Below, in pieces: positions 39,279 to 41,929 of a DNA stretch of 64,000 bases; positions within the stretch are counted from its first letter, which is position 1; each line of letters begins with the position of its first letter. The stretch lies in the NCBI RefSeq assembly GCF_024700885.2, contig NZ_CP117016.1; one strand, 5' to 3'. A program made the position numbers and the translations under genes. The DNA is from Escherichia coli (GTDB lineage: Bacteria; Pseudomonadota; Gammaproteobacteria; Enterobacterales; Enterobacteriaceae). The notes beneath the pieces were generated by a model that saw nothing but the letters and a program-made list of their open reading frames with translations, was not told where the DNA came from and ran no database searches.

Positions 39279-40199
39279 ATGTTTCCACAATGCAAATTTT
39301 CCCGCGAGTTTCTACATCCTCGCTACTGGCTCACATGGTTTGGGCTTGGTGTACTCTGGCTTTGGGTACAGCTTCCTTATCCTGTTCTCTGCTTTCTCGG
39401 CACGCGTATTGGCGCAATAGCGCGACCATTCCTGAAACGGCGTGAATCTATCGCCCGTAAAAACCTGGAACTTTGTTTCCCACAGCATTCTGCGGAAGAA
39501 CGCGAGAAGATGATTGCCGAAAACTTTCGTTCACTCGGCATGGCGCTGGTAGAAACCGGCATGGCGTGGTTCTGGCCCGACAGTCGCGTACGTAAATGGT
39601 TTGATGTTGAAGGGTTGGATAACCTTAAACGCGCACAAATGCAAAATCGCGGCGTAATGGTTGTCGGCGTCCATTTTATGTCGCTGGAACTGGGCGGCCG
39701 CGTGATGGGACTGTGCCAACCAATGATGGCTACCTATCGTCCACATAATAATCAGCTGATGGAATGGGTGCAGACCCGTGGGCGCATGCGCTCTAACAAA
39801 GCGATGATCGGCAGAAATAATCTGCGCGGCATTGTCGGTGCACTGAAGAAAGGTGAAGCGGTATGGTTTGCTCCCGATCAGGATTATGGTCGTAAAGGCA
39901 GCTCCTTCGCGCCGTTCTTTGCGGTGGAAAATGTCGCCACAACCAATGGTACGTATGTCCTTTCACGTCTCTCTGGCGCAGCCATGTTAACCGTAACGAT
40001 GGTAAGAAAAGCGGATTACAGCGGATATCGTTTGTACATCACCCCAGAGATGGAAGGCTACCCGGCAGATGAAAATCAAGCCGCTGCCTATATGAACAAG
40101 ATTATCGAAAAAGAGATCATGCGCGCACCGGAGCAGTACCTCTGGATCCACCGTCGCTTTAAAACGCGCCCGGTGGGAGAATCGTCGCTATACATTTAA
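39279..40199 (+). CDS. lpxP: lipid A palmitoleoyltransferase (cold-induced late acyltransferase)
   Basis: 306 aa from MFPQCKFSREFLHPRYWLTW… (LpxL/LpxM/LpxP family); track ORF starts 22 codons upstream at 39213. Confidence 0.9.
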   Translation: MFPQCKFSREFLHPRYWLTWFGLGVLWLWVQLPYPVLCFLGTRIGAIARPFLKRRESIARKNLELCFPQHSAEEREKMIAENFRSLGMALVETGMAWFWPDSRVRKWFDVEGLDNLKRAQMQNRGVMVVGVHFMSLELGGRVMGLCQPMMATYRPHNNQLMEWVQTRGRMRSNKAMIGRNNLRGIVGALKKGEAVWFAPDQDYGRKGSSFAPFFAVENVATTNGTYVLSRLSGAAMLTVTMVRKADYSGYRLYITPEMEGYPADENQAAAYMNKIIEKEIMRAPEQYLWIHRRFKTRPVGESSLYI

Positions 40200-40554
40200 C
40201 AAACTGCTCTTACTCTTTCCCTCCTCAAATCAGCCATAATAACCTCATGGTTTTTATGGCTTTTTTCTTAAGGTTTTTTCCTTCGCTGAATCTCTAATTA
40301 TTACCGTCAGAAATTAAACTGTCGCCGATATGAGACACCTGTAAGTTACTAAAAGTAAATAAGAAAATGCCTCTTGTCTCGTTTCAGTTTTAGGCGTACA
40401 TTAGCGCCGTCTGGAGCAGTTTAGCTCAGAATTCTGGGGTGATGCCCACGGTAAAATACAGGACTTTTAAGGTCGTTTTGCCCGGTGTCAACTCACTGTA
40501 TCAGGTGTAATGAAGTCATTCAGGCGTAACAGTAATTACGCGGAGAGATGTAAA

Positions 40555-40626
40555 GTGAAATATTTCTTTATGGGCATTTCTTTTATGGTCATCGTTTGGG
40601 CCGGTACTTTTGCCCTGATGATCTAA
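40555..40626 (+). CDS. ypdK: 23-aa single-TM small membrane protein YpdK (GTG start)
   Basis: GTG-KYFFMGISFMVIVWAGTFALMI-stop, preceded by GGAGAG Shine-Dalgarno 7 nt upstream; matches my recollection of K-12 ypdK. Confidence 0.6.
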   Translation: MKYFFMGISFMVIVWAGTFALMI

Positions 40627-40690
40627 AAGCAAACTGTGCAATGAAAAACAGGAGCCATCAGGCTCCTGTTTGCATTTTTGAGGTCGGTGT

Positions 40691-41929
40691 TTATTCCGCG
40701 TTTTCGTGAATATGTTTGCTGCTGGCGGGTAGTAAACCATCGGCACGGAACATCGCTTTAATCCCACGAATCGCCTGACGAATACGGTCGCGGTTTTCAA
40801 TCAGTGCAAAGCGAACATGCGTGTCGCCGTAGTCGCCAAAGCCAATCCCCGGAGAGACACAGACCTTCGCTTCGTTCAGCAGCTTCTTGGCAAATTCCAG
40901 CGAGCCCATGGCAGCATACGGTTCCGGGATTTTCGCCCAGACATACATCGAAGCCTTCGGCATTTCGACCATCCAGCCCGCTTCATGCAGCCCTTTTACC
41001 AGTACATCACGGCGGCGTTTGTACTGTTCAGCAATGTCGCGCACGCACTGTTGATCGCCCTCCAGCGCCGCAATCGCTGCCACCTGCAACGGCGTAAAGG
41101 TGCCGTAATCGTGATAGCTTTTAATACGTGCCAGCGCGCTGACCAGCGTTTTGTTGCCAACCATAAAGCCGATACGCCAGCCCGCCATGTTGTAGCTTTT
41201 CGACAGCGTAAAGAACTCGACCGCCACATCGCGTGCACCCGGCACCTGCATGATTGACGGCGCTTTCCAGCCATCGTAGACGATATCGGCATAGGCCAGG
41301 TCATGGACCACCAGCACATCGTAGCGTTTCGCCAGCGCCACAACCTTCTCAAAGAATTCCAGCTCCACGCATTGCGCGGTTGGATTCGACGGGAAGCCGA
41401 GGATCATCATCTTCGGTTTCGGATAACTTTCGCGAATGGCGCGTTCCAGTTCGTTGAAGAAATCGACACCTTCCACCAGCGGCACTGAGCGTACCTGCGC
41501 CCCGGCAATCACCGCGCCGTAAATATGAATCGGGTAGCTTGGATTAGGCACCAGTACAGTGTCACCATGATCCAGCGTCGCCAGCATCAGATGCGCCAGT
41601 CCCTCTTTCGAACCAATGGTGACGATGGCTTCTGATTCCGGGTCGATCTCGACGTCGTAGCGATCCTGATACCAGCGGGAAATGGCGCGACGTAACCGCG
41701 GAATGCCGCGTGAAGTAGAGTAACCATGCGTGTCCGGTCGCTGGGCCACCGTACATAATTTTTCGACGATATGCGGCGGAGTCGCACCGTCCGGGTTACC
41801 CATACTGAAATCGATAATATCTTCGCCGCGCCGACGCGCAGCCATTTTCAGTTCAGCGGTAATATTAAAAACGTAGGGCGGGAGACGATCAATGCGCGTA
41901 AAGCGACGTTCAAGGCGAGTGTCAGCCAT
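40691..41929 (-). CDS. alaC: glutamate-pyruvate aminotransferase AlaC (PLP-dependent)
   Basis: 412 aa class I/II aminotransferase ORF beginning [21 protein letters not shown]…. Confidence 0.95.

What the first reader, a model, noticed from the sequence alone, without database searches (positions are those of the whole stretch)
40555..40626. GTG-initiated 23-codon single-TM micro-protein between lpxP and alaC
The frame GTG-KYFFMGISFMVIVWAGTFALMI-stop has a good Shine-Dalgarno sequence and is missed by ATG-only ORF calling. It matches my recollection of the K-12 small protein YpdK, and the overlapping 94-aa minus-strand track ORF is likely spurious.
Basis: partly seen in the sequence, partly recalled or inferred. 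Interest (0 to 1): 0.25.

Follow-up and report, generated by a model that had tools for sequence, protein, structure and literature searches.

The report
Known small membrane protein gene ypdK
The 23-codon GTG-started frame is the already annotated E. coli gene ypdK, a tiny single-helix membrane protein of unknown function that is strongly conserved next to alaC across enterobacteria, so the finding is correct but not new.

Summary
Window 40555-40626 (+) is exactly ypdK (K-12 b4680, WP_010723117.1, "membrane protein YpdK"). RefSeq annotates it at these coordinates. It matches the curated NCBIfam equivalog NF033437 over its full length (57.5 bits, cutoff 30).

In 80 alaC-anchored Enterobacterales genomes, 75 carry the frame intact and convergent to alaC. 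The GTG start is invariant, a Shine-Dalgarno sequence is conserved, and variation is codon-periodic with eight invariant residues. The in-frame ATG extension (38 aa) and the 94-aa antisense ORF are not conserved.

Three things seen outside the stated coordinates look unreported in the papers I could search:
- ypdK has its own conserved promoter and a roughly 148-nt leader with covariation-supported helices. The leader has no Rfam match.
- A published tiling-array transcript starts at the predicted position.
- A published Salmonella FabR ChIP peak, dismissed because lpxP and alaC are convergent, was validated with primers that lie inside ypdK.

This suggests, but does not prove, that ypdK belongs to the FabR membrane-lipid regulon. 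The function of the protein remains unknown.

The parts
40555..40626 (+). ypdK coding sequence: GTG start, 23 codons, TAA stop. It encodes a single hydrophobic helix (GRAVY 1.73).
40542..40545 (+). Shine-Dalgarno core GGAG, 9 nt before the GTG. GCGGAG is invariant in the 40 aligned Enterobacteriaceae leaders; Erwiniaceae have AGAGGAG or close variants.
40374..40402 (+). Putative sigma-70 promoter: -35 TTGTCT (40374-79), 17-nt spacer, -10 TACATT (40397-402). It is conserved across Enterobacteriaceae; Erwiniaceae have TAAATT at the -10. It scores 8 of 12 against consensus, below the scan tool's threshold.
   Evidence: for conservation; a published tiling-array transcript starts 148 nt upstream of the GTG, about 40407. 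One search did not flag it.
40393..40400 (+). GGCGTACA, identical to the left half-site of the fabB FabR operator. It overlaps the -10. The right half of the palindrome is not matched.
   Evidence: (fabB, fabA and trhA/yqfA sites).
40320..40347 (+). Conserved upstream block: inverted repeat TGTC-N10-GACA, and ACAccTGTaagtT, which matches the published FabR 'core' motif ACAnnTGTnnnnT. An AT-rich tract follows.
40407..40554 (+). 5' leader of about 148 nt. Elements:
- 5' hairpin, 40410-30.
- Long-range helix, 40436-46 with 40484-94, enclosing a variable hairpin.
- Hairpin 40524-29 / 40536-41, abutting the SD.
- Possible closing helix, CGUC 40408-11 with GAUG 40547-50.
   Evidence: (no Rfam match).
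40646..40681 (.). Intrinsic terminator shared by the convergent ypdK and alaC: an 11-bp stem flanked by an A-run and a T-run. It is conserved, with compensatory stem variants.
40510..40554 (+). In-frame ATG extension that would give a 38-aa ORF. It is restricted to Escherichia and is not the conserved start.
40516..40800 (-). 94-aa mechanical ORF antisense to ypdK. It is judged spurious.

Best explanation
**Shown**
- The feature is ypdK, a real and already annotated gene for a 23-residue protein that is essentially one transmembrane helix.
- It has a conserved promoter-like element about 150 nt upstream.
- It has a leader with conserved base-paired helices.
- It has a GGAG ribosome-binding site, an invariant GTG start and an invariant AAA second-codon lysine.
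- It shares a hairpin terminator with the convergent alaC.

**Inferred**
- The peptide inserts in the inner membrane, probably N-terminus-in because of Lys2.
- It probably acts by helix-helix contact with a larger membrane protein or complex, using two invariant motifs near the ends of the helix: K-Y-x-x-M-G-x-S and W-x-G-T-F-x-L-M.
- Its synthesis is probably held low and regulated in three ways: by the GTG start, by leader structure that can pair the 5' end with the ribosome-binding region, and possibly by the repressor FabR at the promoter.
- FabR control would place YpdK in membrane-lipid (unsaturated fatty acid) homeostasis.

**Confidence by part**
- Identity as ypdK: about 0.97.
- Small-membrane-protein modulator mode of action: about 0.5.
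- FabR and leader control: about 0.3 each.
For: **Identity**
- Exact coordinates are annotated as ypdK in 5422 of 5426 complete E. coli genomes.
- NF033437 equivalog match, 57.5 bits against a cutoff of 30, profile positions 1-23 of 23.
- Source names for four orthologue variants all read 'membrane protein YpdK'.

**Coding**
- 75 of 80 alaC-anchored species genomes carry the ORF, always GTG-started.
- M1, Y3, M6, G7, S9, G17, T18 and F19 are invariant while their third codon positions vary. Entropy by codon position is 0.57 / 0.19 / 1.13, and pN/pS is 0.28.
- The ORF is 100% identical in 4771 of 5423 E. coli records, against 301 of 5423 at >=99% for the surrounding 501 nt.

**Membrane helix**
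- GRAVY is 1.73 and the only charged residue is K2.

**Transcript**
- The conserved -35/-10 is shown.
- The array transcript 5' end lies 148 nt upstream of the GTG and is UV-induced by log2 1.06 (PMC3009722 supplement).

**Leader structure**
- 94.3% of cells are paired, against at most 47.5% when partners are slid.
- 10 pairs carry compensatory changes.
- 67 compensated cells are seen, against 21.4 +/- 4.7 in shuffles (0 of 500 reach the observed value).
- The 5' hairpin is present with different stems in every genus.
- An independent Erwiniaceae alignment again pairs the 5' end with the SD region.

**FabR**
- ChIP-chip and ChIP-qPCR show binding in the Salmonella ddg/yfdZ intergenic region (PMC4804515).
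- The qPCR primers map to 40590-40608 and 40637-40658, inside ypdK.
Against: - No function, partner or phenotype for YpdK was found in the searchable literature.
- No solved structure contains it.
- Conserved residues are not confined to one helical face: 877 of 5000 permutations reach the observed moment. A simple one-face packing model is therefore not supported.
- No full FabR palindrome lies near ypdK at up to 3 mismatches; only a half-site and a loose core motif are present. ChIP fragments were about 800 bp.
- The E. coli leader alone does not fold better than shuffles (z = -1.2).
- The closing helix shows almost no covariation and overlaps the 5' hairpin.
- Translation and membrane localisation were not tested here. 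They rest on Hemm et al. 2008 as cited by PMC3009722; the primary paper was not readable.
Confidence: 0.9

Rival explanations
1. The conserved region is a non-coding RNA (an sRNA, or a 3'/5' element of neighbouring genes), and the short frame is not translated.
For: - The transcript has a long, structured, conserved leader.
- The full transcript folds well (z = -4.2).
- The ORF is tiny and starts with GTG.
Against: - Variation has strict three-base periodicity.
- Residues are invariant while their third codon positions vary.
- The frame is open in 77 of 77 copies.
- The SD sits at a fixed distance from the start.
- A curated protein family exists.
- The literature lists ypdK among experimentally presented small proteins.
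- A dual-function RNA, both coding and regulatory, is not excluded.
Confidence: 0.03
2. The real product is the 38-aa protein started at ATG 40510 (MKSFRRNSNYAERCKV-KYFF...).
For: The ATG is in frame and the extension is open in all three Escherichia loci.
Against: - Most other genera have a stop codon 1-2 codons upstream of the GTG.
- The family profile is 23 positions long and matches residues 17-38 of the long form.
- The AGGTG before the ATG is only about 2 nt away.
- The extension would be translated through the SD-adjacent hairpin.
Confidence: 0.04
3. The 94-aa minus-strand ORF (40516-40800) is the true gene, and the plus-strand frame is its shadow.
For: It is the longest mechanical ORF over the interval.
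Against: - It has no Pfam or NCBIfam hit.
- It is not annotated in RefSeq.
- It starts with TTG inside alaC, in another frame, and crosses the terminator hairpin.
- No antisense frame is conserved open: 33, 39 and 13 of 69.
Confidence: 0.01
4. The upstream conservation reflects only promoter and transcription-factor sites in DNA, including a second promoter at the TATAAT-like box (about 40497-40502, degenerate in E. coli), and not RNA structure.
For: - The TCTATAAT/TATACT box is conserved in many genera.
- The E. coli leader's fold energy is unremarkable.
- Promoter-proximal blocks are conserved over about 130 bp.
Against: - Compensatory changes in the long-range helix and the SD-adjacent hairpin are not explained by DNA sites: column pair 42/91 is AU 14, UG 13, UA 9; pair 44/89 is CG 30, UA 8; pair 133/149 is GC 28, AU 7.
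- Natural deletions remove the inner hairpin but keep the helix arms.
- The array transcript starts upstream of both arms.
Confidence: 0.15

Closest known systems
YpdK (E. coli K-12 b4680; NCBIfam NF033437; Hemm et al. 2008 small membrane proteins)
   Same: The sequence, coordinates, GTG start, length and neighbours are identical.
   Different: Nothing differs; this is the same gene. The literature I could search gives no function, promoter, leader or regulator for it.
Other enterobacterial single-helix small proteins that modulate larger membrane proteins (AcrZ-AcrB, MgtS-MgtA, MgrB-PhoQ, CydX-cytochrome bd; from general knowledge)
   Same: It is under 50 aa, has one hydrophobic helix, is chromosomally encoded with its own promoter, and is conserved in enterobacteria.
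   Different: No partner is known, and there is no sequence similarity. The conserved residues sit in two terminal motifs rather than on one helical face. YpdK is shorter than most of these proteins.
FabR regulon (fabA, fabB, trhA/yqfA)
   Same: FabR binds in vivo at this locus in Salmonella (PMC4804515). A GGCGTACA half-site identical to that of fabB overlaps the -10. Like TrhA, the product is a membrane protein.
   Different: The 18-bp palindrome found at fabA, fabB and trhA is not present. No expression data exist for a fabR mutant.
Structured 5' leaders that occlude the ribosome-binding site (RNA thermometers, translational riboregulators)
   Same: The helices are conserved. In two family-level alignments the predicted pairing joins the 5' end to the SD or spacer region.
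   Different: It matches no Rfam family. No ligand or signal is known, and the RBS-pairing helix has little covariation.

Membership tests
YpdK (NCBIfam NF033437 equivalog) | Full-length profile match above the curated cutoff | tested here: met
   57.5 bits against a cutoff of 30; residues 1-23 match profile positions 1-23 of 23.
YpdK (NCBIfam NF033437 equivalog) | Same locus as K-12 b4680 (between lpxP and alaC, convergent to alaC) | tested here: met
   The annotated coordinates coincide. The convergent arrangement with alaC holds in 75 of 80 species.
YpdK (NCBIfam NF033437 equivalog) | Protein-coding selection on the frame | tested here: met
   Codon-position entropy is 0.57 / 0.19 / 1.13, pN/pS is 0.28, and eight residues are invariant.
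YpdK (NCBIfam NF033437 equivalog) | Translated and membrane-located in vivo | not testable with these tools
   PMC3009722 cites Hemm et al. 2008 for this. The primary papers are not held.
FabR regulon | FabR occupancy in vivo | not testable with these tools
   Published ChIP-chip and ChIP-qPCR in S. Typhimurium; the amplicon maps to 40590-40658 of this window.
FabR regulon | 18-bp palindromic operator (AGCGTACAnGTGTnnGCT type) | tested here: not met
   No match at up to 3 mismatches near ypdK. Only the left half-site GGCGTACA and the loose ACAnnTGTnnnnT motif are present.
FabR regulon | De-repression in a fabR mutant | not tested
   No expression data were available. ypdK was not considered in PMC4804515.
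Cis-regulatory structured RNA leader | Conserved secondary structure with compensatory changes | tested here: met
Cis-regulatory structured RNA leader | Membership of a described RNA family | tested here: not met
   An Rfam 15 scan of 40100-40800 at E<=1 gave only two chance-level hits, to a plastid UTR and a snoRNA.
Cis-regulatory structured RNA leader | Structure controls translation or stability | not testable with these tools
   Requires reporter fusions and structure probing.

The most novel reading that the evidence does not exclude
ypdK is the unrecognised target behind the 'orphan' FabR ChIP peak between the convergent lpxP and alaC genes. Under this reading, YpdK is a FabR-controlled small membrane protein acting in unsaturated-fatty-acid and membrane homeostasis. 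Its translation is additionally gated by a conserved, so far undescribed, roughly 148-nt structured leader that pairs its 5' end with the ribosome-binding region.
Probability: 0.3. Interest if true: 0.5.

Novelty: already known. Interest (0 to 1): 0.15.

Why it matters
As a gene call it adds nothing. ypdK has been annotated since 2008 and is named automatically by NCBI's pipeline.

The value lies in the context. YpdK is one of many enterobacterial small membrane proteins with no known function. The conserved leader structure and the overlooked FabR occupancy give two concrete, cheap and testable handles on when it is made and in which pathway it acts. They would also explain a published ChIP peak that its authors dismissed as unlikely to have any regulatory function.

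Tried and rejected
- **Protein searches blocked by length.** The representative search, structure prediction and encoding-contig look-ups all need at least 30 aa, so they were not run. Synteny through alaC was used instead.
- **Database searches with no hit.** Pfam gave no family, the PDB sequence search gave no hit, and Rfam gave nothing real.
- **Primary papers not held.** Hemm 2008, Hemm 2010, Fontaine 2011 and the EcoSal small-proteome review could not be read.
- **Supplements with nothing.** The supplements of three small-protein papers either were not held as text or did not mention ypdK.
- **Literature searches for a link.** Searches for b4680 and for lpxP + alaC + small protein found nothing relevant. 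FabR + lpxP led only to a sigma-S ChIP peak that lies upstream of lpxP, not at ypdK.
- **Promoter scan.** The simple scan did not flag the conserved promoter, which scores 8 of 12.
- **One-face helix interface.** This hypothesis was tested and not supported.
- **Full FabR palindrome.** It was searched for and not found.
- **Motif search in the four negative loci.** A loose YpdK motif search in the four alaC loci where the region could be searched and no ypdK was found gave nothing.

Full report
**1. Observation**

Window 40555-40626 (+) reads GTG AAA TAT TTC TTT ATG GGC ... ATG ATC TAA. It translates to (M)KYFFMGISFMVIVWAGTFALMI. A GGAG core lies at 40542-45, 9 nt before the GTG.

lpxP (39279-40199, +) is 355 nt upstream. 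alaC (40691-41929, -) ends 64 nt downstream. The description is accurate.

One detail is inexact. In this window an in-frame ATG at 40510 gives a 38-aa ORF, so an ATG-only caller would report a longer version rather than nothing.

**2. Identity**

- A 501-nt query around the site is present in 5422 of 5426 complete E. coli genomes. The feature under it is annotated "ypdK: membrane protein YpdK".
- In two fetched records the CDS falls at locus 3356-3427, which is window 40555-40626 exactly. The protein is WP_010723117.1.
- In K-12 MG1655 it is b4680 / YP_002791250.1.
- The peptide matches NCBIfam equivalog NF033437 "YpdK" over 23 of 23 positions, at 57.5 bits against a cutoff of 30. There is no Pfam family.
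- PMC3009722 names ypdK as one of the 18 small membrane proteins presented by Hemm et al. 2008. The primary papers could not be read.

**3. Is it a real coding gene?**

Because 23 aa is too short for the protein search tools, I anchored on alaC. This fetched 80 species-representative Enterobacterales loci. Results:

- A collinear YpdK frame is present in 75 of them, convergent to alaC. Its stop is usually about 50-70 nt from the alaC stop.
- One of the five negative loci ends before the position where the frame would lie. The other four lack it: Erwinia endophytica, Symbiopectobacterium, Lonsdalea and a contig labelled Pseudomonas resinovorans.
- All 77 copies, including the two E. coli records, start with GTG. 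Each is preceded by GCGGAG in Enterobacteriaceae or AGAGGAG in Erwiniaceae.
- Across 69 distinct coding sequences, M1, Y3, M6, G7, S9, G17, T18 and F19 are invariant while their third codon positions vary freely.
- Mean entropy by codon position is 0.57 / 0.19 / 1.13, and pooled pN/pS is 0.28.
- Codon 2 is AAA in 66 of 69 and never AAG.
- Within E. coli the ORF is 100% identical in 4771 of 5423 records. Only 301 of 5423 reach >=99% over the surrounding 501 nt.
- In most genera other than Escherichia a stop codon lies 1-2 codons upstream of the GTG. This rules out the 38-aa form as the conserved product.

The antisense 94-aa ORF is spurious on five counts:

- It has no family hit.
- It is not annotated.
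- It begins inside alaC in a different frame.
- It crosses the terminator.
- It is not conserved: antisense frames are open in only 33, 39 and 13 of 69 sequences.

**4. Anatomy of the locus**

*Linkage.* lpxP is the upstream neighbour only in Escherichia, Citrobacter, Salmonella, Enterobacter and Lelliottia. The conserved linkage is with alaC.

*Terminator.* The hairpin at 40646-40671 is flanked by an A-run and a T-run. It is conserved with compensated stem variants. It serves both convergent genes.

*Promoter.*
- Upstream alignments reveal a conserved promoter-like element.
- It consists of -35 TTGTCT (40374-79), a 17-nt spacer and -10 TACATT (40397-402).
- The -10 is embedded in a nearly invariant block, GGCGTACATTAGCGCC.
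- About 130 bp of further conserved sequence lies upstream. It includes an inverted repeat and an AT-rich tract.

*Transcript start.* A published tiling-array transcript (PMC3009722, supplementary file 3) runs from 148 nt upstream of the ypdK start. That is window position about 40407, immediately after the -10. The transcript was UV-induced by log2 1.06.

**5. Leader structure**

Forty Enterobacteriaceae leaders were aligned (A1). RNAalifold predicted three helices:

- A long-range helix, window 40436-46 with 40484-94.
- A hairpin abutting the SD, 40524-29 with 36-41.
- A closing helix between the 5' end (CGUC, 40408-11) and the SD-start spacer (GAUG, 40547-50).

Counting pairs on this structure gave the following:

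| Measure | Observed | Control |
|---|---|---|
| Cells forming a standard pair | 94.3% | at most 47.5% with partners slid |
| Pairs with changes on both sides | 10 | 5.9 +/- 1.1 in shuffles |
| Cells with changes on both sides | 67 | 21.4 +/- 4.7 in shuffles (0 of 500 reach it) |

Further points:

- The 5' hairpin (40410-30) forms in every genus with different stem sequences.
- Natural deletions in one E. coli lineage and in Pseudocitrobacter remove the inner variable hairpin but keep the long-range arms.
- An independent alignment of 18 Erwiniaceae leaders again gives a covarying 5' hairpin, and pairs the 5' end (UCCU) with the SD (AGGA).
- Rfam has no match.

Caveats:

- The E. coli leader alone is not unusually stable (z = -1.2).
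- The closing helix barely covaries.
- The closing helix overlaps the 5' hairpin, so the two are alternatives.

**6. A possible regulator**

PMC4804515 (Hermans et al. 2016) reported in vivo FabR binding in S. Typhimurium by ChIP-chip and ChIP-qPCR. The site was the ddg (lpxP) / yfdZ (alaC) intergenic region. The authors judged FabR unlikely to have any regulatory function there because the two genes converge. They did not mention ypdK.

- Their qPCR primers map to window 40590-40608 (+) and 40637-40658 (-). Both lie inside the ypdK ORF and terminator, about 200 bp from the ypdK promoter.
- The known operators are fabA AGCGTACACGTGTTAGCT, fabB GGCGTACAAGTGTACGCT and trhA/yqfA AGCTAACAGGTGTTCACT.
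- The ypdK promoter carries the exact fabB left half-site GGCGTACA over its -10 (40393-400).
- The paper's loose core motif ACAnnTGTnnnnT occurs at 40335-47.
- No full palindrome is present at up to 3 mismatches.

FabR control is therefore a lead, not a result.

**7. The protein**

- GRAVY is 1.73 and the only charged side chain is Lys2.
- 15 of 40 distinct orthologues add one C-terminal residue: E in 9, K in 5 and A in 1.
- Conservation falls into two terminal motifs, K-Y-x-x-M-G-x-S and W-x-G-T-F-x-L-M, around a variable hydrophobic core.
- Conservation is not confined to one helical face: 877 of 5000 permutations reach the observed moment.
- No PDB chain resembles it.
- No function is given in the accessible literature.

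My best inference is a membrane-embedded modulator of a larger protein or complex, made at low and regulated levels.

**8. Verdict**

Interest in the finding as stated is low.

The conserved leader, the invariant GTG and the overlooked FabR occupancy are side observations worth a short experimental follow-up.

Noticed in passing
window 40407-40554 (+); alignments A1 and A2: The ypdK 5' leader of about 148 nt has covariation-supported helices conserved across Enterobacteriaceae. It has an analogous architecture in Erwiniaceae. Predicted pairing joins the 5' end to the ribosome-binding region. There is no Rfam match.
   Followed up: partly
window 40300-40420 and 40590-40658: A published Salmonella FabR ChIP peak, dismissed by its authors as unlikely to be regulatory, was validated with primers that lie inside ypdK. 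The ypdK promoter carries the fabB-type half-site GGCGTACA over its -10, but no full palindrome.
   Followed up: partly
window 40555-40560; loci L001-L082: The GTG start is invariant in all 77 copies. Codon 2 is AAA in 66 of 69 distinct sequences and never AAG. This points to nucleotide-level constraint on the initiation region.
   Followed up: partly
window 40548-40553: In Escherichia the SD-to-start spacer contains an out-of-frame ATG immediately followed by TAA (a start-stop). Other genera have GATGAAAC. The conserved GATG coincides with the predicted pairing to the leader's 5' CGUC.
   Followed up: no
window 40320-40372: A conserved inverted repeat (TGTCG-N8-CGACA in most genera) and an AT-rich tract lie upstream of the -35. 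They look like a possible second operator and an UP element.
   Followed up: no
L003 (E. coli SCPM-O-B-8794), L011 and L012 (Pseudocitrobacter): Natural deletions of about 30 nt remove the inner variable hairpin of the leader but retain both arms of the long-range helix.
   Followed up: partly
L041 (Buttiauxella brennerae), L082 (Serratia bockelmannii): ypdK is present but displaced from alaC, by about 1.6 kb and about 0.7 kb respectively. Something has presumably been inserted between the two genes.
   Followed up: no
L081 (contig labelled Pseudomonas resinovorans DSM 21078): An AlaC 91% identical to that of E. coli sits on a contig labelled Pseudomonas, with no ypdK downstream. This could be a highly conserved homologue, a transfer or a mislabelled contig.
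   Followed up: no
E. coli genome searches: One E. coli record carries a copy of the ypdK region on a plasmid, some genomes have up to three copies, and 4 of 5426 genomes have no match.
   Followed up: no
window 40439-40510 (+): A 23-codon GTG ORF (MMPTVKYRTFKVVLPGVNSLYQV) lies inside the leader, just after an SD-like GAGGTGAT block. The region is variable or deleted in other genera, so it is probably not coding.
   Followed up: no
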